A stretch of DNA of 64,000 bases, taken from a virus. The DNA lies in IMG/VR virus record IMGVR_UViG_3300029305_006219. One strand, given 5' to 3'. Under the pieces are notes generated by a model. It saw only the letters and a list, made by a program, of their open reading frames with translations, did not search any database and was not told the DNA's origin. Below are positions 3,606-36,828 of the stretch, piece after piece (position 1 is the first letter of the stretch; every line of letters begins with the position of its first letter). The position numbers and the translations under genes are program-made.

Positions 3606-3635
3606 TGAATAAAAGAAATAAAAGGAGAAAGATAC

Positions 3636-4115
3636 GTGGAAATAATTGGATTAATTATTTTAATAGCTGGATTAATATTTATTGGATTTGACTATGGACG
3701 TATGTTAATTAAGAATCGGCGCCTATAGGCAAAATTAGGTGATGATTCGGCGCCTTACACACCTACAAGGAATATTATGGTAATGGATGAATATTGCCCT
3801 TATTTAGTTAAATTAACGACACTATGTATTAAAGCTCATGGAGATGCTAATATTAAAATTACAAAATATGATAGTAGTCAAGAGAATGTTGGTGTGATTA
3901 AAGTGTATTTTGATAATGATGATGAACTATTGGTTTATTAGTATGGTAAAGCAAAGATTAAAGAGTTAACAAATAGAGAAAAGAAGAATTATGCTAATAA
4001 AATTTTTCTTGACTATAAGTTACCAGAGGGTGCGGCCGGCGCAGTAATAAAAGATTTAGGATTAATGAATCACATGGTTTATTTCGGCTTTTGTGATGAA
4101 AGGAGTGTAAAATGA
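3636..4115 (+). CDS. membrane protein (about 159 aa, N-terminal TM helix) with 2 in-frame TAG codons
   Basis: GTG start after the RBS AGGAGA. The frame is open to the TGA at 4113-4115 when the two TAGs are read through. The ATGA overlap with the next gene suggests translational coupling. The gene is absent from the ORF track because of the TAGs. Confidence 0.5.
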
Positions 4116-4519
4116 GTAATTGGGCAAAAACAGGTGAAGCTTATTTTGGAGATTCTTTTGATAGAAAAATAACTCTTGGACCTGGGGAATTGAGTTTTAG
4201 CGCTAATAATTGCGTGATAGATCAAGATGCTTTATCTTCTATAGTAGGATATGATAGTGCTAATACTTATGCAATGGCAACTAGTTATGAAAAGCCAATA
4301 AGTATAGGCTACTGTGGAGATATAAGTGCTAAGGCAGATTCTGTTAGCGCTTTACAAGTGGATATTTCAGCAAGAGTAGATCAGCTTGAAGAGAAGCTTG
4401 ATACAGTAATGGCGCGCATTGATGAGTTAAAGCAGTCTGTTTCACGTACTTCAAGATTGCGTTCGTTATTAAGAACGTTGCATTATAATAGCGAAGTTGA
4501 AAGTGGCGCCAACTTTTGA
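4112..4519 (+). CDS. hypothetical coiled-coil protein (135 aa)
   Basis: ORF from the track with an RBS gaaaggag and no in-frame TAG. Confidence 0.55.
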   Translation: MSNWAKTGEAYFGDSFDRKITLGPGELSFSANNCVIDQDALSSIVGYDSANTYAMATSYEKPISIGYCGDISAKADSVSALQVDISARVDQLEEKLDTVMARIDELKQSVSRTSRLRSLLRTLHYNSEVESGANF

Positions 4520-4776
4520 TGTAAGCTGCTAAGGGTGCAGATTGGCGCATGAACCAACACGATTTTGCTACGATTTTAATTGAACTTGCTTTTGATAAAA
4601 GGCGGCATGACAACAGATTGTTGCAAAACTATTAAAGATGATGCGATAAGGAAAATATAGAAAAGAGTATATCGTCGAAAAATTGGCAAATTAAGGTAGT
4701 ATTATGGAAAAAATTTTGGACAAAAATAGATACAATTACTACCTTAATTTTTATATAATAGTGAAAGGAGTTAGTA

Positions 4777-4974
4777 ATGACTCGTGAAGAAATAATATTT
4801 TAGTTAAAGGAGATGCGCGCAAAAGGTTATACGTATAAGTTGATTGCGAAAGAGGCAAAATTAGATAATCCTGATTAGCTTTATAAGTTTATCAATAGAG
4901 ATGCTCCTGCTATTTGGGTGAAGCAGCAATTAGAGAACTATTTGCGCCGAGTAAACGGAAATGGGTCAAATTAA
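4777..4974 (+). CDS. small HTH-like protein (65 aa) with 2 in-frame TAG codons
   Basis: RBS gaaaggag plus ATG at 4777. With TAG read as sense the protein is MTREEIIF(Q)LKEMRAKGYTYKLIAKEAKLDNPD(Q)LYKF..., ending on TAA at 4972-4974. Confidence 0.4.
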
Positions 4975-5162
4975 AGAAAGAGTGATTTACACTCGAAAAA
5001 TGGCGTACGAATTACGCAAGTTGGGTTTTAAGATTATTAGAGTGATACCTGATGAGAAGAAACCTTATTTTGATAATTATGTATTTGAAGATAGTCTTGA
5101 GTTACAAGAGGCTATGCGCAAATTATCTTAGGTTTAAAATAAGGAATCGGAGGTATCGGATA

Positions 5163-5846
5163 ATGATTAAAGAATTTAAGAATAATCCTGTAAGAGATTT
5201 TGGTAACGTATATCAGACTATGTTGTCACAGATAAAAAAGAGATATGAGAAAGATCCTGTACAAGCTGGAGAATTAGCTATTAGTTTTATTGAATATGTA
5301 TTAACAGGTGATATTAGTAGTGACGATGATATTATTGAAGGCTTTGTTGAAGGATATAAGGTTACGACTAAAAAGAATCAAGATAAATATGATGCTAAGG
5401 TCGCTGCAACAAGAGACGCGCTAAAGCCAATTGCAGATATGTATAATAGGGGTATGACACAGGCGGCGATTGCGCGTGAGCTAGGTGTTCAGCCGCCCGC
5501 TATTTCAAAGAAAATGTCTACCATTCGTACACAGTTTCCAGAGTTGTTAGATAATGAAGGAAAATTAAAGAAAGTTTCCGAAAATTCTGGAAATAATGGA
5601 AAGTTTCCAAAAAATGAGGAAAGTATAGAAAAAGTTTCTGAAAATTCTGGAAATATTAAGAAAGAAGAAGAAAGTTTAGAAACGTTTCCAAGTTTCCAAA
5701 GTTTCCACAATAATAATAACTATAATAACAATAATAACTAGAATAATAATAATGAAGTTTCCATTTCGCCTCGCGGCGAGTCAGGGCTTCGCCCCGACAC
5801 CCCTGCGGCTTCGCCGATAAAGAAGATTGGAGGGTTTGAGTTTTGA
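5163..5846 (+). CDS. HTH DNA-binding protein (sigma-70 region-4 / ArpU-RinA-like helix-turn-helix), with a possible C-terminal extension past the TAG at 5739
   Basis: RBS ggaggt plus ATG at 5163. HTH motif GMTQAAIARELGVQPPAISKKMSTIR. The track ORF stops at the TAG at 5739-5741, and the frame then stays open to the TGA at 5844-5846. The 3' end is built from repeated KVSENSGN / GTTTCCA units. Confidence 0.5.
5571..5770. repeat. iteron-like direct repeats (A)AAGTTTCC(A/G)AAA, at least 7 copies including three tandem copies, followed by an AT-rich (AAT)n tract and a GC-rich segment
   Basis: aaagtttccgaaaa, aaagtttccaaaaa, aaagtttctgaaaa, cgtttccaa-gtttccaaa-gtttccacaa and agtttccattt, all inside the 3' end of the HTH gene. 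Confidence 0.5.
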
Positions 5847-6124
5847 GGGGAGTATATGTAATTGCTGATGATATGGGAAGAGTTTACTATGTGGGACAGA
5901 GTGAATAGTTGGAAAATAGAACATGGGGACATTTAGCTAAAATAAAACAAGATGAGAATAAATATAAGAAAAATAAATTATATTGGATATTGGGTAGATT
6001 GAATGATTTAAAAGTTGGGCTTCATTGTTATTTATTAGAAGAGTATCCGTCATGGAATAGAATCGATATTAAGACAAGAGAAAAAGAAAATATTCGATTG
6101 TTAAAACCTGTATTAAATACTTAG
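5843..6124 (+). CDS. small GIY-YIG nuclease (about 93 aa) containing 1 in-frame TAG
   Basis: RBS GGAGGG plus a TTG start. The motif GVYVIADDMGRVYYVGQSE(TAG)LENRTWGHL matches GIY...YIG...R...H. The TAG lies inside the conserved block, at a position that is D/N-like in I-TevI and UvrC. Confidence 0.55.
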
Positions 6125-6315
6125 GTTCCTACTGATTGCATTTGTTATATGAAGAATATTTGGAATGCGGTAACAGCGGCAGTTCAGGCAGATGAAAATG
6201 GAAGATGGGATTTTAAAGGATGTAGGAAAATATGGTGAAGATGTGGAGAAATTATAGTAGAGTGGAGAGTTGTCCTGCGACCGAATCCAGAACCACTTCC
6301 ACTCATCTCTCGTCT

Positions 6316-6350
6316 TCGTTATCCCTATTGATTTATAATAAAATATATGA
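6316..6350 (+). promoter_or_regulatory. promoter TTGATT-N17-TATAAT
   Basis: attgatttataataaaatatatgatataat lies upstream of the RBS and the ATG at 6391. Confidence 0.45.
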
Positions 6351-6390
6351 TATAATAATTATAGAAAATATAAGAAAGGAAATAATACCA

Positions 6391-6762
6391 ATGAATATTG
6401 AAGATATGATCATGAATGGTGCATCTGAAGAAGAGATTGCAGAAGCTATAGACCAGATTCGCGCCAAGAGAACCTTGAAAATGGAAGAAGAGCGTCAGGC
6501 GCGCGAATCTCAAAAGAAGAAAGATGAAGAGCAGACCGCGAAAGAGGCGCTTAAGGCAGAGGCTCGCGCGCATTTCATCAATGCTGTACTTGCATATAGT
6601 GAGGCTTTTGACCTTTTGGAAGAGGGAGAGAGCTGGACTGAAGAAGATCTAAAAGAGGTGGAAGAGTACCTTATTCAGATTGAAGGAATAATTCCTATGT
6701 ATGCTAAGATGATGAAGAAGAAAAAGGAATTCGGATTTGGAGATCTTTTTGGATTGATATAA
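6391..6762 (+). CDS. hypothetical acidic coiled-coil protein (about 123 aa)
   Basis: The most plausible start is the ATG at 6391 (RBS aagaaaggaa) inside track ORF 6232..6762. Confidence 0.5.
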   Translation: MNIEDMIMNGASEEEIAEAIDQIRAKRTLKMEEERQARESQKKKDEEQTAKEALKAEARAHFINAVLAYSEAFDLLEEGESWTEEDLKEVEEYLIQIEGIIPMYAKMMKKKKEFGFGDLFGLI

Positions 6763-6974
6763 GCGCCGGTCCAGGTTATAGAAGTATAAATATAGAGAAT
6801 AGAGCGTTGGGTAAAACCCGGCGCTCTTATTGTTTTACCTCTTGACGCGACGAAGGCGCATTGGCGCCGAGGAGCGAAAGTTAAAAATTTTTCAAAAGTA
6901 GATAATTGTATTACCTTAATTTTAATATAACAATGACAAAGAAATACATTGTCACTAAGAAAGATTGTAACGAA

Positions 6975-7040
6975 TTATTAAACTACTTAATTTTATAGTC
7001 ATTATAAAAGTCATTACAATCTTTCCAATACTAAAAGAAA
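6975..7040 (+). promoter_or_regulatory. structured 5' leader of the HTH regulator gene, with a 10-bp inverted repeat AAGATTGTAA...TTACAATCTT
   Basis: A perfect 10-bp inverted repeat separated by about 50 nt, together with the direct repeat tcattataaaag/tcattacaat, lies immediately upstream of the RBS and the GTG at 7055. Confidence 0.4.
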
Positions 7041-7054
7041 GGAGATGAATTATA

Positions 7055-7762
7055 GTGAAACTTGTTGAAGGTAAAATAACTTTAGCTAATTTGGCTACTT
7101 GGCTAGGAGTATCTGCAGGCACCCTGCGCAATAATAAAAGTAAGTATTTAAATATTTTAGCTCGCTATTGCCGATATCATGAAGAAGGAACTACCAAAAA
7201 GACTCTTTATATTGATGAAGTATACGAAGCAGAATATTCGGCGCTATAGGGTCCAAAACCTTATCAAAGAGTAAAAGAGTTAACAAGAGAGGGTTGGAGC
7301 GCAGAAGGGCTAGATAGTTGTGCTCTTGTTGCAAGTCGTAATTTTCCTATTCTATAGCAAGAGGGATACACAATTACAGAAAATACCAATTATAATTATA
7401 CTTGTTAGAGCAGAACGGAACTTTGGGGCAGTCCTATGAAGCGCACAAATGGTGAGCTTGGCTATTGTCGTTATGAGTATTGTAAAATTGGACCTTAGGG
7501 CAAGCTTGTTCCGCTTAATGAGGAAGAATAGAAGATTAAGCGCTAGATCACAGAGAAATACTTTGGTAATTTAGAAGATTTTACTCTTGGGATAGCTGAT
7601 GATATTAAAACTGGTAAGATTACTGCGGAAGAGGCTGGTATTGCATTAGCTAATTTAGGTAGTCATGGAGAATATTTAGCTTGGAAGAATGAACTTGAGG
7701 CTAGACTAGGTTGTAAGATTTATAAAGGAACAAGAATACATAATGAAGAGAGTGCGTTTTAA
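7055..7762 (+). CDS. Xre-like HTH transcriptional regulator (about 235 aa) with 6 in-frame TAG codons
   Basis: N-terminal HTH motif ITLANLATWLGVSAGTLRNNKSKYL. The track ORF ends at the TAG at 7247. The same frame then continues for about 170 codons with five more TAGs and no TAA/TGA until the TAA at 7760-7762. A terminator follows directly. Confidence 0.55.
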
Positions 7763-7777
7763 TGCGCACTCTTTTTG
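7749..7777 (+). terminator. intrinsic terminator
   Basis: Hairpin agagtgcg-ttttaat-cgcactct followed by TTTTT. Confidence 0.6.
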
Positions 7778-8374
7778 CCGTGTATTTATTTTTACTATGC
7801 ATTTCTAGCAAAAGTACTACACGTAGTAAAATCAATACACGATGAATGTGGTAATTTGCTAAGTTTTTTAATCATACTCAGCCTATACTTCGCTTGATAA
7901 TAAATAATATTAGGTACATTTGCAACCTTTCTGCGTTACCCTTTTTTAAGGCAACGGCAACTATAAGTAAGGAGTATGAGAAGTTGTTGCCTTGTTTTAA
8001 GGTAACAGAAGCGCCTTTCCATTTTATTACATTTTTACCAAATTTTGGTAATACGCATCTATACTACCCTCAAGTCACGGCCTCCCCTTAACTCATTAAC
8101 CAATAGTAGCTCCTTTCTTCTTTACTATTGTCATCTTTTATTCTTTTCACTATAATTATACCATAATTTTCACTAAAATTCAACTTTTTCTCTTGGATCT
8201 AGGCGGCAATCATCATATTTTTCATTTCTGCGACCAAATTTTAGCATTATTGAAAGAACAAAAACAAGGAAAATACATTAGAAATATGAGTTTTTGATAA
8301 AATATTCATATATTATGCGAAAAAATTGATAAAAATGCTAATTATAGGAAAAAATAATGAAAATGAAACAACCA

Positions 8375-8600
8375 AAAATCGCGGGCGTTATAGTGGAAAG
8401 CACTGGACTAGAGCGATGACGGCTCTTTGCGATTGTCCGCGGCCCGAGCATATGCGCGTGCGCGCTATAGAGGTAGAATTAAGGGAAAACAGTGACTGCG
8501 CCAAACAACTATTTTTCGGTCGGTATAATATGGAAGAGATGGTAGATTCTGGAAACGGGGCTAGCCGGTGGCTAGCGACCCGCGCAATTATGAACAAAGT
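8375..8600. other. GC-rich structured island (candidate ncRNA or DNA recognition element)
   Basis: A sharp local rise in GC content. A CGCGGG...CCCGCG helix closes the element. Inside it are the hairpin AGAGCG..GCTCT, the palindrome GCGCGtgCGCGC and a tandem palindromic GGCTAGCC-ggt-GGCTAGC. Track ORF 8326..8604 is unconvincing as protein. Confidence 0.35.
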
Positions 8601-8618
8601 GTGAACAAGGGCGCAGAT

Positions 8619-8655
8619 AAAAAAAACAGAAGGCTTTACCCTCTGTTTTCTTTTA
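8619..8655. terminator. bidirectional intrinsic terminator (ends the leftward early operon)
   Basis: An A8 run, then hairpin acagaagg..cctctgt, then a T-rich run. Confidence 0.6.
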
Positions 8656-8669
8656 GTGACATTTGGCGC

Positions 8670-8912
8670 TCAATCCTCTGTCACCTCTTCCTCTCCGTTT
8701 TTATCATACAATTTTCCGTCTGTACAACAGCCGTCATAGGTCAGGCGCATATATTCTATCCAATGATGACCGCAGTTATGACATCTGCGCTCTATTGAGA
8801 TTATCTCGTATAAGTCACCATTCTGTTCGGTGACATCTATCTCGGGGTCACTTGAATTATAGACCTTTTCAAACTCGCCGCATTTCGGACATTCGTATTC
8901 TCTTGTTTTCAT
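8670..8912 (-). CDS. small zinc-ribbon protein (80 aa)
   Basis: CPKCG...CHNCGH motifs. Intact ORF. Confidence 0.5.
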   Translation of the reverse strand: MKTREYECPKCGEFEKVYNSSDPEIDVTEQNGDLYEIISIERRCHNCGHHWIEYMRLTYDGCCTDGKLYDKNGEEEVTED

Positions 8913-9196
8913 TCTTCTTCCTCGCTTTCTTCGGGAATATCATAAGATAGGATTGTTCCATAGTATATGGCAGTATACAAATTGCGCCATCGTTTTTCGC
9001 AATTAAGACATTGATAAGTTTCCTCAACGAAGCCGTTGTTGTCATTTGGATATTCAAATGGATTTACTCCACTTCCATCATTCCAAACGATATTATCAGA
9101 TTTGCAAAAAGGACACACAATCCCTGCTTTGGGAAGTCTTACCATAGTATTATTGGCGGTATAGTTTCCTGTTTGTAATTTCTTATATATATTCAT
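8909..9196 (-). CDS. small zinc-ribbon protein (95 aa)
   Basis: CPFC...CLNC motifs and a TGA stop. It overlaps the neighbouring genes. Confidence 0.5.
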   Translation of the reverse strand: MNIYKKLQTGNYTANNTMVRLPKAGIVCPFCKSDNIVWNDGSGVNPFEYPNDNNGFVEETYQCLNCEKRWRNLYTAIYYGTILSYDIPEESEEEE

Positions 9197-9232
9197 TCCT
9201 CTTCCTCGCTTTCGTAGTGGGGGTGACTTTCG

Positions 9233-9703
9233 TCACCCCTCGGTAAAGTAGGTGTCAAATTCGCCTTTAGTTTTAAGCGATTCAAGACCTTTCTTCGTGT
9301 ATCTCGTCAAGTCAAGCTTAAAGTATTCACCGCCTTGCTTGAACACTATCATTTTACCCGCCTTGACGATTTTACAGTAGTCTGCATTTTCCGATATAGC
9401 GGTTTCGATTGCTTGGATAATTCCGTTCTTAGTTTTATCCTCTTTCACTACCCTCTCGCGCTGTGTCTTTTGCTTATACTCGGTTGATTTAGCTTTATGA
9501 ACCGTTGCGCTAACTCGATTCTCTTTAGCTTTTGCGGTGAGTGCTTGTTCTTCTTCGTTGTCGATATAATCGTTATCAAAGAGCCAAAGGTCAACCGCCT
9601 CTTGCCGTGAGCATTTAAGCATACGCATATTCAGCTCTATTGCCTCATTCGGTACTCGCACTGTGCGCCCGTTCTCAAGGGTATAAAGGCTATAATCTGC
9701 CAT
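9233..9703 (-). CDS. hypothetical protein (156 aa)
   Basis: Intact ORF with a TGA stop. A class-A promoter lies directly upstream. Confidence 0.55.
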   Translation of the reverse strand: MADYSLYTLENGRTVRVPNEAIELNMRMLKCSRQEAVDLWLFDNDYIDNEEEQALTAKAKENRVSATVHKAKSTEYKQKTQRERVVKEDKTKNGIIQAIETAISENADYCKIVKAGKMIVFKQGGEYFKLDLTRYTKKGLESLKTKGEFDTYFTEG

Positions 9704-9730
9704 TGGTTTTTACCTCTCTTTCTGTCCTCT

Positions 9731-9759
9731 TGACATATATATTATACCACACTCTTGGT
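9731..9759 (-). promoter_or_regulatory. early leftward promoter (class A: TTGACA-N17-TGgTATAAT plus an upstream A/T tract)
   Basis: The reverse complement reads cTTGACAaatgaccaagagtgtggTATAAT. On the minus strand an A-tract aaaaaatttttcaaaaac lies upstream of the -35. Confidence 0.55.
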
Positions 9760-9816
9760 CATTTGTCAAGAGGTTTGGTAAAAGTTTTTGAAAAATTTTT
9801 TTGGTATGAGGGAGAA

Positions 9817-10227
9817 TTACTCTCCCTCTACCTCGTCTACTACCCCGTAATTAAGGGAGTAGTATGCAACTTTCTTTTCAAGGGTGCGCTTAAAGTCTGC
9901 GCTCTTGGACACGATAGCGGTAATCATCTGTGACGATACGTTATCTCCGTTAGCTCTCTTATACTCTTTGATAGAATCGACCTTGAGGAGTGAGCCAACG
10001 GTCATTCCCTTTTCATCTACACACTCGGCGAGAGCGTCCTTGATAAGTTCGGTTACTGCGAGAGCGTCTTTCTGCGCAGGAGTGAGAGAAGCGGACTTTG
10101 AGTTCTTACGGGAGAGAAGCTCTATCTCGTGAGCCATAACATCTGCCCACTCGGTTTTGCCGTTCTCTATGAGGAACGCTTTGATGTTCTCAAAATTCTC
10201 TCTCTTGGTGATTTTCTTTTCTGCCAT
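9817..10227 (-). CDS. small protein, paralog family member 2 (136 aa)
   Basis: Similar in length and blocks to 1225..1614 and 10799..11203, e.g. ...SSQMITAIVSKSADFKRTLEKKVAYYSL. Confidence 0.55.
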   Translation of the reverse strand: MAEKKITKRENFENIKAFLIENGKTEWADVMAHEIELLSRKNSKSASLTPAQKDALAVTELIKDALAECVDEKGMTVGSLLKVDSIKEYKRANGDNVSSQMITAIVSKSADFKRTLEKKVAYYSLNYGVVDEVEGE

Positions 10228-10306
10228 AGTTTTCTACCTTTGCGATCTGTGACCGCCCTTTCAAAATTTTTTATTTCAAGAGGATTTTCCTCTTGATTAC
10301 ATATAT

Positions 10307-10335
10307 ATTATATCACAAGTTTGTGATTTTGTCAA
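10307..10335 (-). promoter_or_regulatory. early leftward promoter (class A)
   Basis: The minus strand reads TTGACA-N17-TATAAT (plus-strand attatatc...ttgtcaagggg). Confidence 0.5.
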
Positions 10336-10429
10336 GGGGTTTTTGAAAAGTTTTTCAAAAATTTTTTATTTTTTTCAGTGGTTGCAACTACGGGACGATG
10401 CCTCGCAAGGTCGTTCTATCCGTCACCGC

Positions 10430-10476
10430 CCCTTGACTACGATAATATTATATCATAAAAAGATAAATTTGTCAAT
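10430..10476 (-). promoter_or_regulatory. early leftward promoter (class B, with upstream TGCACAA operators)
   Basis: The minus strand reads TTGACAaatttatctttttatgaTATAAT. It lies about 80 nt upstream of the class-A promoter, a tandem arrangement. Confidence 0.45.
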
Positions 10477-10491
10477 AGAAAATGGGAAAAT

Positions 10492-10545
10492 AATTTGCAC
10501 AAATTTGAGAGGAATTTTGGTGAGAAAATTGTGCAACTTGCACAA
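10492..10545. promoter_or_regulatory. operator-like palindromes AATTTGCACAAATT and TTGTGCAAcTTGCACAA
   Basis: A perfect 8-1-8 inverted repeat at 10529-10545. The same 17-mer recurs at 12857-12873 and 16958-16974, and related half-sites occur upstream of other class-B promoters. Confidence 0.5.
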
Positions 10546-10557
10546 AAACGCACAAAT

Positions 10558-10625
10558 CGGCCCAGCGGCGGCCGCCGTTGGGCCGGTCAAAAAAAGACCT
10601 CTGCCGTCGCAGAGGTCTATCCTCG
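10558..10625 (-). terminator. tandem terminator: a GC-rich palindrome plus a hairpin with T7
   Basis: ggcccagcggcggccgccgttgggcc, then hairpin agacctctg..cagaggtct followed on the minus strand by T7. Confidence 0.5.
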
Positions 10626-10798
10626 AGGTTGACCATTCTCGCTTTCTCGCCACTCCTTGCGCATAGGGGACTTTGGTTTTAATGGTCTGCAAAGGCGTGT
10701 GATTTGAACACACATCTGTTGGAAACGAAACCAACTGTTCTTCCATTAAACTACCCTTTGTTATGTATGAGGGGCGCATTTGCGCCCCTGTGCCTCAC

Positions 10799-11203
10799 TC
10801 ACGCAAGGCGAAAGTAAGTGACCTTTTTGTCAATGGTCTTGACTACATCACCGCAGTCAACGAGCTTTTTAAGCATAGAGGAAACTCGCTGTGAAGATGT
10901 TTCCTTACCATCTGCCCACTCAAACTCTGCGATACGAGAATCCTTTGCTATCGCACCGCACTGCATACCCTTTACATCGGTTGCTTCTGCGAGAACATCA
11001 TGAATGAGGTCAAGGAAAGTATCAACTTCCTCTGCGCGCTTTGCGCTGACCTTACCACTCTTGCTTTCAAGCTGACCGAGCTTCTTTTCGGCAAACTCGA
11101 TTACTTTATCCATAGGGATTGTGGTCGGCTCTCCGCTTGCCATCTTGATGATTTCCTCATACATCTGCTTCTGTGTGTACTTGATTTCCTTGATTTCTGC
11201 CAT
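10799..11203 (-). CDS. small protein, paralog family member 3 (134 aa)
   Basis: Third member of the family, e.g. ...SSQRVSSMLKKLVDCGDVVKTIDKKVTYFRLA. TGA stop. Confidence 0.55.
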   Translation of the reverse strand: MAEIKEIKYTQKQMYEEIIKMASGEPTTIPMDKVIEFAEKKLGQLESKSGKVSAKRAEEVDTFLDLIHDVLAEATDVKGMQCGAIAKDSRIAEFEWADGKETSSQRVSSMLKKLVDCGDVVKTIDKKVTYFRLA

Positions 11204-11354
11204 AATTTTTTTCCTCTCTTGCTATTAGGTTGCAACCCTTTAATTTTATTTATCAGAGGTATTCCCTCTTGATTACATATATATTATACCATACTTTTTG
11301 GTATTTGTCAATAGGTTTTTGAAAAATTTTTTATTTTTTTTCTTGGGTAGAGGG

Positions 11355-12074
11355 TTATTCACCCTCTACCTCTTTGCGCTTATGAAAGGGATATACCCAT
11401 TCACCCTCTGGAGTTAAGCAACCGAGTTTCGTGCGCTCTTGGAAGATATTACAACCTCTTTTTCCAAGTTCACAAAGAATACGGAGTTCCCATTGAACAT
11501 CGGAAAGTGCGGTATGTTCCTCAACAAAATCTTTATCTTGGTTAAGAAATGCGGTTACACCCTCAACAGAGGTCGGTATATATTTACCACTTGGAGTGCG
11601 GAGTTCGTGTTCGTTGCAAAATGCGATATAATCTGCGGTAGAGCATATGTCGTATTGTGCATTACACCATATATCTATAACCTCGATTTTGTCAAGTGGA
11701 TTCAAAATACCGAGCGCAGTTGCGGTTCTGCGGAATTTGTCCTCGTCAAACTCGGAGTTATAGGCAAAGCCATACTGTATGCCATATCGGTCAATATCTC
11801 TTGCTATTTGCTCAAATATCTGTTTTTCGGTACGGAGTATTGCCGTTCCGTTCTCAACATTCAAGTCAAACTTTGCGAGTTTTTCTGCTTTGACGAACAT
11901 ATCATTCAAGAGCCAAATGCGGTTGTGATAATGTTTGCCTACAAGATAGTCTTTGCCTTTGAGTATCTTATACTTAAAGGTTGTTAAGTCAACATCTGCT
12001 ATACAATAGCCTATGTTAAGTAGTGTTTGGGTACAACACCCTGCGGTTTCGGTATCAAATACCATAATGTTCAT
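11355..12074 (-). CDS. DEDDh-family 3'-5' exonuclease (DnaQ / RNase T-like), 239 aa
   Basis: Exo I motif MVFDTETAG, a later FDxxF block and the Exo III motif H-TALSDVQWE. Intact ORF with a TAA stop. Confidence 0.7.
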   Translation of the reverse strand: MNIMVFDTETAGCCTQTLLNIGYCIADVDLTTFKYKILKGKDYLVGKHYHNRIWLLNDMFVKAEKLAKFDLNVENGTAILRTEKQIFEQIARDIDRYGIQYGFAYNSEFDEDKFRRTATALGILNPLDKIEVIDIWCNAQYDICSTADYIAFCNEHELRTPSGKYIPTSVEGVTAFLNQDKDFVEEHTALSDVQWELRILCELGKRGCNIFQERTKLGCLTPEGEWVYPFHKRKEVEGE

Positions 12075-12159
12075 TTTTTCTTTTCCTCTCTTTCTGTCAT
12101 AGGGAGTAGCCCTCGCTCTCCACTCGACATATATATTATATCACATCTTGACGAATTTG

Positions 12160-12606
12160 TCAAGAGGTTTTACAAAATTTTTTCAAAATTTCAAAAATTT
12201 TTTCGGGCGGAAATGCGTCACCCTTAGTCCACTCAAGGCGGTTGCGCTCTTCATCGTCAAACAGTATGCCCTCACTCTTGGCTACGGACGATTTGGGTGT
12301 GCCATATGGAACGATATGCAATTCATCAAAAATAACGGACTTCAAGTGCTTTTTGAGCCATTTGCGCTTGGCTTTAGTGACCGCCTTGTTATAGTCCTCA
12401 GTTGCGGCTTTAGACAGCCACGATATAACACCTATATGAACGCCATTGCGCTGAGCCTTATTCAATGCTCTTGCAAGTGCAGACATATTGTGCATAGGTC
12501 TTGCTTCTTCATATGGGCGCGTTCGCTTGGCTTCAAGGTCATCGAGCCAGCCTTCGACCGCATAAAGGTCAGCAACGGTGCCGTCAAGGTCTAAATAAAT
12601 TGTCAT
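12160..12606 (-). CDS. HAD-superfamily 5'(3')-deoxyribonucleotidase-like phosphatase (NT5C-like), 148 aa
   Basis: HAD motif I LDLDGTVADL at the N-terminus. Size and layout are typical of phage NT5C-like enzymes. Confidence 0.6.
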   Translation of the reverse strand: MTIYLDLDGTVADLYAVEGWLDDLEAKRTRPYEEARPMHNMSALARALNKAQRNGVHIGVISWLSKAATEDYNKAVTKAKRKWLKKHLKSVIFDELHIVPYGTPKSSVAKSEGILFDDEERNRLEWTKGDAFPPEKIFEILKKFCKTS

Positions 12607-12640
12607 TTGGTTTAGTTCCTTTCTTCCTTACTGCTCTTAT

Positions 12641-12669
12641 ATTATACCATACTTTGAGCGATTTGTCAA
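12641..12669 (-). promoter_or_regulatory. early leftward promoter (class A)
   Basis: Plus-strand attatacc...ttgtcaagggg with a 17-nt spacer. A second, class-B promoter lies at about 12745-12795. Confidence 0.5.
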
Positions 12670-12856
12670 GGGGTTTTTGAAAAATTTTTTCAAAAATTTT
12701 TGAGTGTCCACTGATTAGCAAGTCCATTTCACTGCTTTTGTTTCTCACCCCTTGACTACGATAATATTATACCACAAAGGGCGCAAAAAGTCAAGCGGTT
12801 TTGGGAATTTTCTTTTCGTCAATTTGCACAAACTTTTGGCGAAAAAATGCGTGGAA

Positions 12857-12935
12857 TTGTGCAATTTGCACAAAAACGGCGCCACACCGATCGGTGGCGC
12901 GCCGACCAAAAAGAGGGAGATTAATCTCCCTCTAT
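12857..12935 (-). promoter_or_regulatory. regulatory/insulator cassette: TTGTGCAAtTTGCACAA, then the GC palindrome ggcgccaCACCGATCGGTGgcgcgcc, then a terminator hairpin
   Basis: Same element order as at 10492-10625. The terminator hairpin agagggagattaatctccctct overlaps the TAA stop of gene 12921..13130. Confidence 0.5.
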
Positions 12936-13130
12936 TATGATTTTATTGATAACTTTTGCATAGTCTTCTTGCGCTCTTCGGAATGCTTGTGCCGCAGTAT
13001 GCAAAGGGCATTCTTCGCAATCAATTTCGCCGCACTGTATATGAATGCAGGGGTCAATCATTATAGCTTCAAGAGTGTCGTGCTGTTCTGTTGCGGTTAT
13101 TGTGACTATGATTTTCATATTTACCTCCAA
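12921..13130 (-). CDS. small Cys-containing protein (69 aa)
   Basis: ORF from the track with a TAA stop. Confidence 0.45.
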   Translation of the reverse strand: MEVNMKIIVTITATEQHDTLEAIMIDPCIHIQCGEIDCEECPLHTAAQAFRRAQEDYAKVINKIIIEGD

Positions 13131-13381
13131 ATTAAATTGATAAGATAATAAGTATTCATCGCAAATAATGCGACATTAAGTATTACAAGATTTATGCGCC
13201 TTGCGCTAAAGCAAAATGCGGTTGCGATTGCCGAGCCGATGAAGAATAATACTGTCATATCGGCGCCACACATAACACCTATTGCGCAAGCGGTATAGAT
13301 TAGTGCGGTGATATCGGTGATATCAAATTCATAGGGGCGGTCAAGGCTGAAATAGGTTTTTAGTTTACCAATCAAAGTCAT
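13121..13381 (-). CDS. small membrane protein (86 aa)
   Basis: Two hydrophobic segments. TAA stop. Confidence 0.5.
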   Translation of the reverse strand: MTLIGKLKTYFSLDRPYEFDITDITALIYTACAIGVMCGADMTVLFFIGSAIATAFCFSARRINLVILNVALFAMNTYYLINLIWR

Positions 13382-13553
13382 CTACCTCTTCTTCCTCATA
13401 ATCATTAGTATAATAATATTGCGTGGTTTTGAACTCTTTACCACAACCGCATTTATATTTGCGACTTGCGACAATTTGCTCTCCGTCCTCTTCATATTTT
13501 GCCGATAAATATTTAACTTGGGCGGTGCTACCGCAATTTGGACATTTAATCAT
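13365..13553 (-). CDS. small zinc-ribbon protein (62 aa)
   Basis: CPNCG...CGCGKEF motifs. Confidence 0.5.
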   Translation of the reverse strand: MIKCPNCGSTAQVKYLSAKYEEDGEQIVASRKYKCGCGKEFKTTQYYYTNDYEEEEVDDFDW

Positions 13554-13753
13554 TTTAATTTAAGCTCCTTTCTAATATTGATAATTCCACGAAATTCTGC
13601 GGTATAGATTGCTTCACAGTGAGGGCAACAAACTTTAGCCTCAAAATCTGCTTCATACCCGTCAAAATTCCATATCTTTGCATCCACATCTCCACAGAAC
13701 AAGTCATCTCTGGTTATAAGTTTATCGCAATTTGGGCATTTAATCATTTTCAA
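13550..13753 (-). CDS. small zinc-ribbon protein (67 aa)
   Basis: CPNC...CCPHC motifs. Confidence 0.5.
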   Translation of the reverse strand: MKMIKCPNCDKLITRDDLFCGDVDAKIWNFDGYEADFEAKVCCPHCEAIYTAEFRGIINIRKELKLK

Positions 13754-13945
13754 ATTCTCCTTGATATTCTCTTATTGTGCAATATCCACTCCAACGCCAT
13801 TCAAGGCATTGTTGATTGATATATTCTTGTGCCTGTTCTTGACTATCAAAGATAGGCGGTTTATTATCTCCTATGAATCCTTTATGCAAGAAGCCGTTTG
13901 GACAAGAGCGAGTATGAATATAAATTACATATTGCATAAGTATTA
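13740..13945 (-). CDS. small protein (about 68 aa); the longer track ORF 13740..14273 is rejected because it runs through the tRNA
   Basis: An internal ATG with RBS aagaggtaatacttATG lies just downstream of the tRNA. Upstream of it, the ORF translates tRNA and promoter DNA (..GSIPIRF.. matches the T-arm). Confidence 0.35.
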
Positions 13946-13957
13946 CCTCTCTTTTTT

Positions 13958-14032
13958 TGGTGAAGCGAATGGGAATTGAACCCACAACGCAGTTGAATAG
14001 TGTCAACCTCATTACCTTTGTGATACCGCTTC
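13958..14032 (-). tRNA. tRNA with CTA in the anticodon loop: candidate amber (UAG) suppressor tRNA
   Basis: Minus-strand sequence GAAGCGGTATCACAAAGGTAATGAGGTTGACACTATTCAACTGCGTTGTGGGTTCAATTCCCATTCGCTTCACCA. The 7-bp acceptor stem has one G.U pair. U8, A14 and GG are in the D-loop. The T-arm is GTGGG/CCCAT with loop TTCAATT. CCA is encoded. The anticodon stem GTTGA/TCAAC is perfect but the loop CACTAT has 6 nt, which is atypical, so the fold needs software confirmation. Confidence 0.6.
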
Positions 14033-14045
14033 TTATTACATTTAT

Positions 14046-14074
14046 ATTATACCATATAATCTTGCTTTTGTCAA
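14046..14074 (-). promoter_or_regulatory. consensus promoter driving the tRNA (TTGACA-N17-TGgTATAAT)
   Basis: The reverse complement reads cTTGACAaaagcaagattatatggTATAAT. The predicted transcription start is about 7 nt before the tRNA 5' end. Confidence 0.55.
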
Positions 14075-14217
14075 GAGGTTTTCGAAAAATATTTGCAACT
14101 ATTTTTCTTATCTCCGATACTTTCCTACTCAAAGCTTTCGTGTCCGTTCTCTTGTTGTACACCAAGTTTCTGATTTCCATTCCTTGCAAGTTAATTTCTC
14201 CGCACGAGGTTCCCCCT

Positions 14218-14258
14218 CTTGACATTATTATTATATCATACAATCGGGAAAATGTCAA
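14218..14258 (-). promoter_or_regulatory. second (class-B) promoter upstream of the tRNA
   Basis: The reverse complement reads cTTGACAttttcccgattgtatgaTATAAT. TGCACAA-type sites lie at 14275-14319, a GC palindrome at 14321-14347 and a terminator at about 14350-14385 further upstream. Confidence 0.5.
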
Positions 14259-14461
14259 GTGGTAATGTTGCACAAAGTTTCAACAAAAAAATGGCGGGAA
14301 GTGTACAAAATGCACAAAACGGAACGCGCCGGCCGGGCTCGTTCCGCTCGGATTTCAGGCAAAAAAGAAAAAACCCAGAACTCATGAAAAGCTCTGGAAA
14401 TTTGTTGAGAGGTCTACTTCGTGGAAATTCGGACTTGGCGCGACCGCCTTCGTCCGTCAGC

Positions 14462-14764
14462 TTAATGGCTGAAGTGTTTCAACACGTCTTGTACATTGTA
14501 CTCATTTTCATCATCACTCATAATTATAATTTTATTTTCCCATTCAGCAGGAATGCTTAAAATTTTAAATGTTTCCTTTAAGAATGAAATCATATTCGTA
14601 CAATCATTTTTTTGATTGTCAGAATGAAAGAGAAGGGCGCCCAACTCTTCACAATAAAGTGCATGAAGTGGATAGTCTTGCGCCGAGAGGGTTTCCCAAT
14701 CAAGGGGAGTAAGTGATGATTCAAAAGAAGTGATGACAAGAGCGTGGATGAAGTGATACTTCAT
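14462..14764 (-). CDS. hypothetical protein (100 aa)
   Basis: ORF from the track with a TAA stop. Confidence 0.5.
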   Translation of the reverse strand: MKYHFIHALVITSFESSLTPLDWETLSAQDYPLHALYCEELGALLFHSDNQKNDCTNMISFLKETFKILSIPAEWENKIIIMSDDENEYNVQDVLKHFSH

Positions 14765-14846
14765 ACCGCGTGACCTCCTTGTATCTCTTATTTCTTTTTA
14801 CATTTATATTATAATATAAAATTTTATAAAAATCAATGGGTGTGGA

Positions 14847-15055
14847 TTATTCCACACCCAAGAGTTCCTTTATTTTATTGACTACTTGCTCTTGTGCTTG
14901 TTTCAGAATGTAATAATCACAATTATCAAGTGTTGCAATATAATCATCTACCGCTATGCGGATTTCAATTTCATTACTATTATGATTAAGATCATACTCC
15001 TTAATGATTTCTTTTTCATTGATTTCTACGCCCGTAGTAATCTCTATATACATAT
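14847..15055 (-). CDS. small protein (about 68 aa, starting MYIEITTGVEINEKE)
   Basis: A strong RBS aaaaggagaaaacaatATG lies inside track ORF 14847..15173. A class-A promoter at 15386-15414 serves the operon. Confidence 0.45.
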
Positions 15056-15096
15056 TGTTTTCTCCTTTTGCGAATTTCCAAATTTTTCCAATGCGC

Positions 15097-15354
15097 CTAC
15101 CAAGCGACTCGGATATGATATCTACCTTCAAAAAGGTTTTTTTCAATCTCAGCCTTGTAGCCAAATTTTTCAAGATTCGCTCTTATGAGTTCGACCTCAT
15201 CTTTGGAAACCTCTTTTACTCCACTGAAATAACCTTGTGAAGCCCTTTTTTTGATGAAGCGCAACATCTCTTTCATTGCCCACGAATGCATGAATTGGTT
15301 TTGATTATTTTCTGCCATCTCTCTTGCTTCCTTTGCGGTCATAGGGTTTTTCAT
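15097..15354 (-). CDS. hypothetical protein (85 aa); the only early gene found that ends on TAG
   Basis: The stop codon is cta on the plus strand at 15097-15099, which is TAG on the minus strand. The frame stays open for about 22 more codons. Confidence 0.5.
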   Translation of the reverse strand: MKNPMTAKEAREMAENNQNQFMHSWAMKEMLRFIKKRASQGYFSGVKEVSKDEVELIRANLEKFGYKAEIEKNLFEGRYHIRVAW

Positions 15355-15428
15355 AAGTATTTCCTCTCTTTCTTTTAGTATATATATTATACCATACTTT
15401 TATATATTTGTCAAGTAGTTTTTGAAAA

Positions 15429-15653
15429 TTATTTGAAAAAAATTTCAAGCACAATTACATCGTCGCAACAACCCTCAATAGTTATTTCCATACTATCTAT
15501 CTTGCGGTTAGCATACTCTTTAATATGCTCACATTCTTTAACATACCAATCGATTGATTGAGCACCAAGCCATTGTTCTGCTTTGAGTAAGAAGTTGTCA
15601 TAAATGCGGATTTTATCTATGTTGTAGATAAGCGGAAGTTGTGCAAGTGTCAT
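15429..15653 (-). CDS. hypothetical protein (74 aa)
   Basis: RBS AGAGAGG. A class-B promoter lies at 15686-15714. Confidence 0.5.
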   Translation of the reverse strand: MTLAQLPLIYNIDKIRIYDNFLLKAEQWLGAQSIDWYVKECEHIKEYANRKIDSMEITIEGCCDDVIVLEIFFK

Positions 15654-15832
15654 AAGTCATTTTCCTCTCTTTCTTTTACACTTATATTATACCACAAATA
15701 TCGGGAATTGTCAATAGGTAATAATCAACAAAGTTTTGCGCCGATTTTTGTGCAAAATGCCAGCCCACAGATAAAACGGCTCGGCGCGCCCGATGCCGAG
15801 CCGCCAAAAAACAAAAGAGGGCAATCGCCCTC

Positions 15833-16213
15833 TTAGGTTTGATATTTAGTTATCTCTGTGGAAGAGCTTTGCGCCACCATTAGCGAAATACACCTTTGCA
15901 TTGTATCGAGTTCAACCACTCTGATGACTTTGCCTTTAGCATACGCATATCCGCACTCCCAAGCTGATCCAAGGTCACCATTGGCGCCTTCGCAAAAATA
16001 GAGAATTTCATCACATTCATCTATTGCTTGAACGTCGTGTTGGAATACCTTGCGCGCCCATTCGGAGTTAGGTAAAGCTTTAGCATTAGGTATCTCTAAT
16101 TCGTGGGGAACGTAAACTTTATATCCTAACTGTCGTAAGAGTTTTGCGTGCTTGTTTATTCTGTCCTTTTGGCTTTCGGTAAACATAGCACTTGCTATAT
16201 AAAACTTTTTCAT
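15833..16213 (-). CDS. nucleoside 2-deoxyribosyltransferase-like protein (NDT / Rcl-DNPH1 fold), 126 aa
   Basis: N-terminal FYIASAMFTE and catalytic-region DLGSAWECGYAYAKGKVI match the NDT family pattern (YxAGxxF ... D.G...E.GyA.a.gK). Confidence 0.55.
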   Translation of the reverse strand: MKKFYIASAMFTESQKDRINKHAKLLRQLGYKVYVPHELEIPNAKALPNSEWARKVFQHDVQAIDECDEILYFCEGANGDLGSAWECGYAYAKGKVIRVVELDTMQRCISLMVAQSSSTEITKYQT

Positions 16214-16238
16214 ATCTCACCTCTTGATAGTGGATAGA

Positions 16239-16457
16239 TTATTCATCTATCCACTCTTTTACTTTATAGGCTGTAACCTCGACAATATCAGCGGTGAATT
16301 TTATCTCTCCCGTAAAGTTATAGATTACGTAAGTATTACCTCTGTTATTTGTCGTAAACTCTCTTGCAAACTGAATTGCCATACTAAGATCGTCAAAATC
16401 AGCAATATGTTTGCCGTCCGCATAGACGCCATAGTCAAGAATGTCAAATTTTACCAT
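16239..16457 (-). CDS. hypothetical protein (72 aa)
   Basis: RBS AAGGAAGG. A class-B promoter lies at about 16486-16522, directly preceded by ATTTTGCACAAAATT. Confidence 0.5.
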   Translation of the reverse strand: MVKFDILDYGVYADGKHIADFDDLSMAIQFAREFTTNNRGNTYVIYNFTGEIKFTADIVEVTAYKVKEWIDE

Positions 16458-16555
16458 AATATTAATACCTTCCTTCCTTTACTGTGCCTATATTATATCA
16501 TATTACTTGCCTCTTGTCAATAGGCATTTTGCACAAAATTTTGCGGCGGGTCTTG

Positions 16556-16864
16556 TTAACAATATACAAGACCCATATCACGCCAACGGAGAATAGAAAT
16601 TTGAGAGCAGGCGCGCCCGACCTCAAGCGCTTTTTTCAAGGTACTTTCGCGATGGCTCTTGTCTATGTAATAAACTCCAGAACTATACCATATACCACAG
16701 TTGCCTTCGTATGCCTTAACGGCGTTGATTGCTTCGCGCGGGTCACGGGTTTCGATACCTTCGGTGGCTACTTGGTAGCCTGTTTTGAACGTGACGCGCT
16801 GACCCTTTTTGAGAGTTAAGCCGTCATTATCTTTAAGTTTGAGAATCGAGCGAATGTTAATCAT
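16556..16864 (-). CDS. hypothetical protein (102 aa)
   Basis: A class-B promoter at about 16895-16925, with TTGTGCAAcTTGCACAA at 16958-16974 upstream of it. Confidence 0.5.
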   Translation of the reverse strand: MINIRSILKLKDNDGLTLKKGQRVTFKTGYQVATEGIETRDPREAINAVKAYEGNCGIWYSSGVYYIDKSHRESTLKKALEVGRACSQISILRWRDMGLVYC

Positions 16865-17041
16865 AGGTGTTTCCCCTTCCTTTATCTTACGTACTTATTA
16901 TACCATAAAAGCGGGAATTTGTCAATAGGCAAAAGTAACAAAGTTTTGATAGTAAATTTGTGCAACTTGCACAACTATGCGTAAAGCGTCACGCCGCGGC
17001 CCTTGGCGTGACGGCGAAAAAAAAAGAGGGCGCAAGCGCCC

Positions 17042-17242
17042 TCATATGAAGTCGGCAAATTGGTCTTCCACCCAAGCCATTATAAGAGGATTAAAGGTTT
17101 GTATCTCAACCTCTACGCATGAGGGATGGACTTGGAGAAGAATTGCCTCTCCTGCGTTATTAGCGGCGAGGAATGAGCAGACTTTTTGCACCGCCATACC
17201 GCTTTCAAAAGTTTTATTAAGCATAAAATTCTTATACTGCAT
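17042..17242 (-). CDS. small protein (about 66 aa)
   Basis: RBS ataagaaaggagatatatATG. It is the C-terminal part of track ORF 17042..17443, whose 5' part overlaps gene 17271..17558 out of frame. Confidence 0.4.
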   Translation of the reverse strand: MQYKNFMLNKTFESGMAVQKVCSFLAANNAGEAILLQVHPSCVEVEIQTFNPLIMAWVEDQFADFI

Positions 17243-17270
17243 ATATATCTCCTTTCTTATGGGGATTGCC

Positions 17271-36733: not shown

Positions 36734-36828
36734 GGTCAAAATAAGATAAATTTAATACCCTAACTATTATATATTAGTAGTATAGGGTATTTTATTTTAC
36801 CTAAAACGAGAAACAAGGAGGATATATA

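What the first reader, a model, noticed from the sequence alone, without database searches (positions are those of the whole stretch)
7790..8330. About 500-bp AT-rich non-coding gap with a long imperfect hairpin and an orphan consensus promoter
No convincing ORF lies here; track ORF 7894..8091 has no RBS and a low-complexity translation. The region contains a long hairpin AAGGCAACGGCAACT...AGTTGTTGCCTTG at about 7935-7995. A minus-strand promoter TTGAAT-N17-TATAAT at about 8115-8150 is followed by an AGGAG but no usable ORF; ATG AGT TAA stops at once. This is a candidate small RNA gene or leader, or part of a replication or packaging region that abuts the GC-rich island.
Basis: seen in the sequence. 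Interest (0 to 1): 0.5.

Follow-up and report, generated by a model that had tools for sequence, protein, structure and literature searches.

The report
Candidate phage small RNA gene
The gap holds a conserved early-type promoter in a gut phage that reads the stop codon TAG as an amino acid. The promoter drives a short leftward transcript that does not code for protein, most likely a small regulatory RNA of unknown target. The long hairpin next to it is a local terminator-like feature, not part of the conserved unit.

Summary
The window is a TAG-recoded phage of Bacillota, distantly related to phAss-1 and Enterococcus phage EF1. The gap lies where rightward TAG-containing genes meet the leftward standard-code early gene cluster.

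However, the minus-strand promoter sits at 8183-8155, not 8115-8150, and the region is only mildly AT-rich.

Comparison with 13 related metagenomic phages shows these parts:
- **Promoter:** TTGAAT-17-TGgTATAAT is kept in 10 of 14 genomes. It belongs to the same class as at least 13 early promoters in this window.
- **Transcript:** it is non-coding. Reading frames shift between relatives, there are 1-nt indels, and the window has an in-frame TGA.
- **Core:** a single-copy, G-rich 34-nt core (8060-8093) is kept in 10 genomes. Its distance from the promoter varies from about 10 to about 75 nt.
- **End of the transcript:** it ends at hairpin terminators at the convergent junction.
it occurs only in this window and fits a plus-strand terminator better.
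- **Right third of the gap (8184-8355):** this is a conserved spacer leading to a tandem two-domain structured element, the 'GC island'.

Best reading: a new phage early small RNA of unknown target. No transcript evidence could be obtained. Interest is moderate.

The parts
7744..7777 (+). Intrinsic terminator of the TAG-containing gene 7049-7762. It marks the left boundary of the gap.
   Evidence: 14-bp stem followed by a T-run. ORF 7049-7762 carries 6 in-frame TAG codons.
7778..7934 (.). Non-conserved filler with no detectable feature.
   Evidence: No DNA match in any of the fetched relatives. No ORF.
7935..8006 (+). Long imperfect hairpin found only in this window. The outer stem is GTTACC/GGTAAC and the inner stem is 7947-7994. 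It is followed by GTTTT on the plus strand. It is probably a plus-strand or bidirectional terminator and may also mark the 3' end of the leftward RNA.
   Evidence: -25 kcal/mol, z -2.5. Two G.U pairs exist only on the plus strand. Relatives carry different terminator hairpins at the same position.
8011..8059 (-). A-rich 3' part of the leftward transcript. It is the reverse complement of the T-rich tail of the plus-strand terminator in relatives. It contains the palindrome TTACCAAATTTTGGTAA.
   Evidence: Conserved in the window, L001, L002, L009, L024, L012, L025 and L029. In L001 and L009 the scan calls hairpin plus this T-tract a terminator on the window-plus strand.
8060..8093 (-). Conserved G-rich core of the leftward transcript (UUAAGGGGAGGCCGUGACUUGAGGGUAGUAUAG). 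It is the candidate functional or seed segment.
   Evidence: Found once per genome in 10 non-redundant genomes. nhmmer E-values are 1.5e-7 to 7e-3 in relatives and 1.3e-6 in the window. Alignment A7 has 8 invariant and several nearly invariant columns.
8101..8130 (-). 5' hairpin CAAUAGU/ACUAUUG with a purine loop containing AGGAG. It is present only in the 'long' variants.
   Evidence: Predicted. Equivalent hairpins are CAAUAGG/CCUAUUG in L025 and CAAUAGCAA/UUGCUGUUG in L001. The last stem pair changes T-A, G-C, C-G. Only 4-5 sequences carry it.
8155..8183 (-). Sigma-A type promoter with an extended -10. The -35 TTGAAT is at 8183-8178, TG at 8163-8162, and the -10 TATAAT at 8160-8155. The predicted start is near 8148.
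   Evidence: 10 of 12 matches, with TG. The full TTGnnn-N-TGnTATAAT pattern is kept in the window plus 9 relatives; L025 has TA in place of TG. It belongs to the same class as the early promoters.
8184..8355 (.). Conserved spacer between the leftward promoter and the GC island. Its motifs include AAGAGAAAAAG, GARCTARAA and TTTTGATAAAATATTCA. Its function and strand are undetermined.
   Evidence: Alignments A5 and A8. The motifs do not recur upstream of other genes. No conserved sigma-A promoter for the plus strand was found.
8362..8600 (+). GC island, which lies outside the finding. It is a tandem duplication of a ~100-nt domain (AAACAAC ... CGCAUAUA ... GGAA ... ACGG-hairpin-CCG). The strand is probably plus but is not proven.
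   Evidence: The fourth closing pair covaries GC:10, CG:7, AU:4, and 0 of 500 shuffles reach the observed score. All 25 domain copies fold into a hairpin. There is purine excess on the plus strand. No Rfam family matches.
8618..8650 (.). Bidirectional intrinsic terminator, with an A-run before it and a T-run after it. It sits between the island and the last early gene, 8670-8912 (minus strand).
   Evidence: Sequence. Inverted repeat I7.

Best explanation
The conserved part of the gap (8005-8183, minus strand) is a small non-coding RNA gene of the phage's early class.

Host RNA polymerase with the primary sigma factor would start at the extended -10 promoter 8183-8155, near base 8148, and transcribe leftward for roughly 145-210 nt. 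The RNA would have four parts:
1. An optional 5' hairpin with a GGAGG-type loop.
2. A conserved, probably single-stranded G-rich core (8093-8060).
3. An A-rich stretch.
4. A stop at the hairpin or hairpins of the convergent junction.

The core is the likely working part. It could act as a seed that pairs with C/U-rich targets in host or phage RNAs, or as a protein-binding site.

**Shown by sequence comparison:** conservation of the promoter, the non-coding nature of the transcript, conservation and single-copy status of the core, and terminators in relatives.

**Inferred only:** that the region is transcribed, where the RNA ends in this window, and what it does.
For: **Genome context.**
- TAG is recoded in the plus-strand genes; one 3150-codon ORF carries 82 in-frame TAGs.
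- The gap lies between a plus-strand gene ending at 7762 and minus-strand standard-code early genes starting at 8670.

**Conservation pattern.**
- Window 8009-8670 aligns to L001 at 77.6% and 8011-8327 to L002 at 68.6%.
- The flanks 7000-8000 and 8670-9400 do not align at the DNA level.

**Promoter.**
- The promoter with TGnTATAAT is kept in 10 of 14 non-redundant genomes.
- It matches the family of at least 13 early promoters in the window.

**Non-coding.**
- The best small ORFs read the core in three different frames in the window, L001 and L025.
- The block differs by 1-nt indels between relatives.
- The window has TGA where relatives have TGG.

**Core.**
- It is present once per genome in 10 genomes.
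- It lies 10-15 nt from the start site in L012, L022, L027 and L031, and 60-75 nt from it in the others. Position-independent conservation fits an RNA module better than a promoter-linked DNA site.

**Terminator.** L031 has a canonical terminator on the small-RNA strand. Hairpins directly follow the block in L001, L009, L024, L022 and L027.

**Strand composition.** G and A are in excess on the minus strand across 7900-8200 (GC skew -0.29). The excess is on the plus strand from 8200 to 8650. This matches the purine loading of sense strands seen for the genes on both sides.
Against: - No expression data exist.
- In this window no canonical minus-strand terminator follows the block. The long hairpin is weaker on the minus strand and is followed there by A's.
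- No conserved secondary structure was found for the core. Single-sequence folds of the short variants are not better than shuffles.
- No complementary target in the 64-kb window beats shuffled controls.
- The element is dispensable or absent in some relatives. L029 has a deletion, and L016, L018 and L020 lack it.
- The layout (5' hairpin, AAGGG..GTGAC, G-run) resembles the 5' leaders of neighbouring early genes. It could therefore be a leader that lost its gene.
- Only about 10 independent sequences are available, and several of them are closely related.
Confidence: 0.5

Rival explanations
1. **Orphan leader.** The promoter plus core would be the remnant of an early transcription unit (promoter, 5' UTR, ribosome-binding site) whose gene was lost at this recombination-prone junction. 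It might still fire but would have no function of its own.
For: - The core contains Shine-Dalgarno-like G-runs followed by a 7-codon mini-ORF in the window, L001 and L002 (sequences).
- Early-gene leaders in the window share the layout hairpin, then AAGGG..GGTCAC, then ribosome-binding site.
- The motif AAGGG-N0-6-[CG]GT[GC]AC occurs 5 times, all on the minus strand, against 0.24 expected.
- The gene to the left differs in nearly every relative.
- L029 lost the unit without obvious compensation.
Against: - A dead leader should decay. Instead the promoter and core are kept in genomes whose neighbouring exonuclease is only 57-62% identical in protein, while the sequence between promoter and core is unalignable.
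- The mini-ORF has no start codon in L025 or L012 and is absent from the short variants.
- Two of the five motif hits are a coding region and a terminator stem.
Confidence: 0.2
2. **Transcription-primed replication origin.** The orphan promoter would make a G-rich RNA that stays hybridised to its template (an R-loop) next to an A/T-rich segment that unwinds easily, and this RNA would prime DNA synthesis. T4 ori(uvsY)/ori(34), the T7 primary origin and ColE1 RNA II work this way (established knowledge, not tested here).
For: - There is an orphan promoter with no gene.
- The transcript has a G-rich segment followed by a 45-nt A/T-rich tract with phased A-tracts.
- Cumulative GC skew peaks at about 7750-7900.
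Against: - The skew turn coincides exactly with the change of coding strand, so it is uninformative.
- There are no iterons and no DnaA boxes in the gap.
- Relatives place an intrinsic terminator directly after the unit.
- The A/T tract is missing from the short variants.
- L029 and the L016/L018/L020 clade lack the unit.
Confidence: 0.1
3. **Control region for the GC island.** The gap would mainly be the regulatory or promoter region of the neighbouring two-domain structured element. The leftward promoter would then be a divergent partner that competes with or insulates transcription, rather than making a functional RNA.
For: - Spacer 8184-8355 is conserved together with the island.
- In the window a near-consensus plus-strand promoter, TTGTCA-17-TATAAT at 8128-8156, overlaps the minus-strand -10 box back to back.
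- Purine skew is positive from 8200 onward.
Against: - The plus-strand promoter 8128-8156 is not kept in L001, L009, L027 or L031.
- No conserved sigma-A promoter for the island was found.
- The island exists without the spacer, promoter or core in L016 and L018.
- This reading does not explain the conserved core downstream of the leftward promoter.
Confidence: 0.12

Closest known systems
Small non-coding RNAs of virulent phages, such as the T4 'species 1 and 2' stable RNAs and candidates from dRNA-seq or ONT-cappable-seq of Pseudomonas phages (PMC8244752, PMC9163698, PMC10914365)
   Same: A short gene-less transcription unit inside a lytic-type phage genome, with its own promoter and a hairpin at its end. 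Its function is unknown. The comparison with T4 is from my own knowledge.
   Different: There is no sequence or Rfam relationship. The unit here is predicted from conservation only, whereas those were detected as transcripts. The host is a Bacillota gut bacterium and the phage uses genetic code 15.
Base-pairing small RNAs and 'sponge' RNAs encoded by prophages (DicF, IpeX, AgvB/AsxR; from my own knowledge)
   Same: The architecture matches: promoter, a short conserved unstructured segment, then a terminator. This is the usual layout of a seed-carrying small RNA.
   Different: No target was found. The seed is G-rich rather than the C/U-rich seeds common in Bacillota. Any dependence on a chaperone is unknown. 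Nothing shows membership of any of these families.
Host-takeover early promoter arrays of SPO1-like phages (large myoviruses of Bacillota)
   Same: The promoter belongs to a dense array of near-consensus TTGACA-17-TGnTATAAT promoters in front of small standard-code genes. The terminase is 42-46% identical to that of Geobacillus virus E3 and Enterococcus phage EF1.
   Different: This copy has a weaker -35 (TTGAAT), lacks the A/T UP-element repeats of the others, and has no gene behind it.
Promoter-type phage replication origins (T4 ori(uvsY)/ori(34), T7 primary origin)
   Same: An orphan promoter followed by an A/T-rich segment.
   Different: A terminator follows in relatives, the A/T tract is not universal, and the unit is absent from some relatives. 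See the rival explanation on replication origins.

Membership tests
Any Rfam 15 RNA family | Covariance-model score at or above the family's gathering threshold | tested here: not met
   The only hit at gathering threshold in the window is the tRNA at 10689-10760. In 7700-8720 at E<=10 there are only sub-threshold chance hits, such as algC at 19.9 bits against a threshold of 33.8 and sraA, which matches only the terminator.
Sigma-70/sigma-A promoter with extended -10 | A -35 hexamer, a 17-bp spacer, TGn, and a -10 TATAAT | tested here: met
   TTGAAT-17-TGgTATAAT at 8183-8155. It is kept in 10 of 14 genomes. Activity itself cannot be tested with these tools.
Intrinsic (Rho-independent) terminator on the small-RNA strand | A G+C-rich hairpin followed directly by a U-tract | tested here: inconclusive
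   The window has none on the minus strand between 7940 and 8010. L031 meets the feature on the small-RNA strand. In L001, L009 and L027 the scan calls the hairpins on the opposite strand only; on the small-RNA strand they are followed by shorter U-rich tails.
Trans-acting base-pairing small RNA | Non-coding transcript | tested here: met
   The frame is not conserved, there are 1-nt indels, and the window has an in-frame TGA.
Trans-acting base-pairing small RNA | A conserved accessible seed with complementary target sites | tested here: inconclusive
   The core is conserved. No site in the window beats shuffled controls: the best non-self duplex is -37, while shuffles range from -34 to -40 kcal/mol. 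The rest of the phage genome and the host genome were not available.
Small protein-coding gene | A reading frame with start and stop kept across relatives | tested here: not met
   The core is read in three different frames in the window, L001 and L025. The 7-codon mini-ORF is kept only in the three closest genomes and has no start codon in L025 or L012.
Promoter-type phage replication origin | A promoter plus a downstream unwinding element, with initiation mapped there | not testable with these tools
   Only indirect data exist: no iterons or DnaA boxes, and the skew is confounded by gene orientation.
Repeated phage promoter or operator motif | The core recurs upstream of other genes | tested here: not met
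   The core occurs once in the window and once in each relative.

The most novel reading that the evidence does not exclude
The leftward small RNA may be one of three neighbouring RNA elements that together time the switch from standard code to TAG-as-glutamine decoding. The other two are the tandem two-domain GC-island element and the nearby tRNA-like gene, whose anticodon loop is 6-8 nt long and often carries UAG itself. The three could act, for example, by titrating the suppressor tRNA, release factor 1 or its mRNA early in infection.
Probability: 0.04. Interest if true: 0.85.

Novelty: new member of a known kind. Interest (0 to 1): 0.4.

Why it matters
Phages that reassign TAG are common in the gut, but how they take over the host early in infection is unknown. 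Almost no small RNAs are known from virulent phages of Bacillota.

This is a conserved early non-coding unit with a defined 34-nt core, and a naturally occurring deletion variant exists. That makes it a concrete target for metatranscriptome mapping and for target searches once a host is known.

On present evidence it is a prediction of a familiar kind of element. It is not a new mechanism.

Tried and rejected
**Coding under other genetic codes.** Translations with TAG, TGA or TAA marked as possibly recoded give no conserved ORF.

**Known RNA families.** None match.

**DNA matches in public collections.**
- There are no matches in annotated phages.
- A pattern scan of metagenome contigs gave only a chance hit in unrelated high-GC DNA.
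- The genome-contig scan gave nothing.
- Two viral-contig pattern scans found only the two contigs already held.
- Relatives were finally reached through the exonuclease protein.

**Target search.** No target in the window beats shuffled controls.

**Link between the small RNA and the GC island.** A 22-nt inverted repeat between core 8073-8094 and island 8476-8497 suggested pairing or shared ancestry. It is not reproduced in relatives and is not above shuffles.

**Core as a degenerate tRNA.** The core shares only GGGTAGTnTAG with the nearby tRNA-like gene, which is not significant.

**Core as a repeated promoter or operator.** It is single-copy.

**Plus-strand promoter 8128-8156.** It is not conserved.

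**Spacer motifs as a shared promoter for plus-strand genes.** They do not recur in a meaningful way.

**Strand of the island from hairpin energies.** The two strands are equal, at -356.8 against -354.9 kcal/mol summed.

**Full consensus structure of the island.** RNAalifold on MAFFT alignments recovers only the outer stems. I did not build a covariance model.

Full report
**Context**

The window is a phage genome that recodes TAG.
- With TAG read through, long plus-strand ORFs appear. One runs 36805-46257 (3150 codons, 82 in-frame TAGs).
- The terminase is 42-46% identical to those of Geobacillus virus E3, Enterococcus phage EF1 and the code-15 gut phage phAss-1 (PMC10607447).
- Genes at 3609-7762 are on the plus strand and contain TAG.
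- Genes from 8670 to about 20027 are on the minus strand, small, in standard code, and preceded by many near-consensus promoters.

The gap 7763-8669 is therefore where the two gene sets converge. The finding covers its left 60%.

**Checking the observation**

- **No ORF.** No convincing ORF exists under any stop-codon reassignment.
- **Hairpin.** It is real. The inner stem is 7947-7994 and the outer stem GTTACC/GGTAAC extends it to 7935-8006. It folds at -25 kcal/mol, z -2.5.
- **Promoter.** The sequence is right, but it lies at 8183-8155, not 8115-8150.
- **Downstream motifs.** AGGAG (8114-8110) and ATG AGT TAA (8096-8088) are as stated.
- **Composition.** The region is only mildly AT-rich, at 30.7% GC against 35.1% for the window. 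The neighbouring island is exceptional at 49.6%.

**Finding relatives**

DNA searches of annotated phages and pattern scans of public collections gave almost nothing.

The exonuclease-like protein 11355-12074 brought in relatives at 34-88% protein identity, from IMG/VR, ENA, Logan and one NCBI metagenome-assembled genome.

A profile of the gap found the homologous region in 13 non-redundant relatives. It is always at the same place, after the last early gene. All loci are inverted relative to the window.

**Anatomy from the alignments**

Going right to left on the minus strand:

1. **Promoter.** Its form is TTGAWT/TGGATT-N17-TGnTATAAT.
   - It is kept in the window, L001, L002, L009, L024, L012, L003, L022, L027 and L031.
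   - L025 has TA in place of TG.
   - L029 lost it by a clean deletion.
   - L016, L018 and L020 lack it.
   - It belongs to the same class as the at least 13 early promoters of the window.
2. **Variable 5' segment.** It is 60-75 nt long in the window, L001, L002, L025, L009 and L024, and almost absent in L012, L022, L027 and L031.
   - In four or five genomes it forms a hairpin with a GGAGG-type loop (window 8101-8130).
   - The last stem pair changes T-A, G-C, C-G.
3. **Core.** It is 34 nt long and G-rich (window 8093-8060).
   - It is present in 10 genomes and single-copy in each.
4. **A-rich stretch and hairpin.**
   - In L031 the hairpin is a canonical terminator on both strands.
   - In L001 and L009 the scan calls it on the opposite strand. 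There the T-rich equivalent of window 8011-8050 serves as its tail.
   - The 3' half of the conserved block therefore doubles as the tail of the terminator of the convergent gene.

**Non-coding status**

- The best small ORFs after the AGGAG read the core in three different frames in the window, L001 and L025.
- Between fixed points of the block, relatives have 34, 35 or 36 nt.
- The window has TGA where the others have TGG.
- A 7-codon mini-ORF after the G-run is kept only in the three closest genomes. It has no start codon in L025 or L012.

Nothing from 7000 to 8010 has a DNA homologue in any relative. The gene to the left is different in almost every genome.

The hairpin occupies the position where relatives have their junction terminators. 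Its two G.U pairs exist only on the plus strand, and it is followed there by GTTTT. It is best read as a plus-strand or bidirectional terminator, left at a junction that is often rearranged. It may also stop the leftward RNA, but that is not shown.

**Right part of the gap and the GC island**

- **Spacer.** 8184-8355 is conserved, but I could not assign it a function. Its motifs do not recur elsewhere. No sigma-A promoter for the plus strand is conserved.
- **Island layout.** The island is a tandem duplication of a ~100-nt domain found in 14 genomes.
- **Island hairpins.** Each domain ends in a hairpin closed by an invariant CGG/CCG. The next pair covaries GC:10, CG:7, AU:4, and 0 of 500 shuffles reach the observed score.
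- **Island strand.** Purine skew, more G.U pairs on the plus strand and T-runs after the last hairpin suggest the plus strand. Hairpin energies do not discriminate between the strands.
- **Resemblance to terminator modules.** The domains weakly resemble the terminator modules between early genes.
- **Known families.** No Rfam family matches.
- **Independence from the small RNA.** The island occurs without the small-RNA unit in L016 and L018, so the two are separable.

**Mechanism**

The most economical reading is a divergent pair. One member is an early, host-polymerase-driven small RNA going left. The other is a structured element going right.

For the small RNA, the core keeps its sequence while its distance from the promoter varies. 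That points to an RNA module rather than a DNA site tied to the promoter.

What the RNA acts on is unknown:
- No target in the window beats chance.
- It shows no relation to the island.
- It shows no relation to the tRNA-like gene.

The rival readings are an orphan leader, a promoter-type replication origin, and a control region for the island. Each is weighed in its own entry.

**Verdict**

The 'small RNA' interpretation is supported by comparative evidence but has no transcript data behind it. This is a new member of a known kind of element, in a little-studied phage clade, and of moderate interest.

Noticed in passing
window 10689-10760 (-); L001 11322-11391, L002 11294-11363, L022 7181-7251, L027 7318-7388, L029 7292-7363: A conserved tRNA-like gene keeps normal acceptor, D and T arms and a covarying anticodon stem. 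Its anticodon loop, however, is 6-8 nt long and hypervariable: UUUCGUUU here, and GUAGGAA, GUAGUAA, UUAGUU and UUCGUU in relatives. Several loops contain UAG, which is the recoded codon itself and not its anticodon CUA. It is not a CUA suppressor.
   Followed up: partly
window 8362-8600 (+?): The GC island is a tandem duplication of a ~100-nt structured domain with covarying hairpins. It is conserved in 14 related phages, including some whose exonuclease is only 34-54% identical. No Rfam family matches, and its strand and promoter are unresolved.
   Followed up: partly
window 9700-17650 (-): At least 13 near-consensus promoters (TTGACA-17-TGnTATAAT with A/T-tract UP elements) precede small standard-code genes. 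The arrangement resembles the host-takeover module of SPO1-like phages.
   Followed up: partly
window 10475-10380 (-) and 12790-12700 (-): Two further promoters start transcripts with the same 5' end, AUUAUCGUAGUCAAGGGG. No ORF follows before the next promoter. These could be more small RNAs or tandem-promoter leaders.
   Followed up: no
window 12905-12860 (-), 10515-10559, 15727-15760, 16937-16988: Early intergenic modules carry a terminator hairpin closed by CGG...CCG, followed by the palindrome TTGTGCAAnnTGCACAA. The palindrome looks like an operator for a dimeric regulator.
   Followed up: no
whole window, for example 36805-46257 (+): TAG is read through in the plus-strand late genes, with up to 82 in-frame TAGs in one ORF. 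The minus-strand early genes are free of TAG. No CUA suppressor tRNA is present in these 64 kb.
   Followed up: partly
L029 about 9368-9421: This relative has a clean deletion that removes exactly the leftward promoter and the core. It keeps the upstream AAGAGAAAAAG motif and the 3' half of the block, so it is a natural knockout of the candidate small RNA.
   Followed up: partly
L003 13800-14250: The most distant relative keeps the orphan promoter (TTGAAA-17-TGtTATACT). It is followed by about 200 nt of unrelated non-coding sequence and a strong terminator. The position is conserved but the sequence is not.
   Followed up: no
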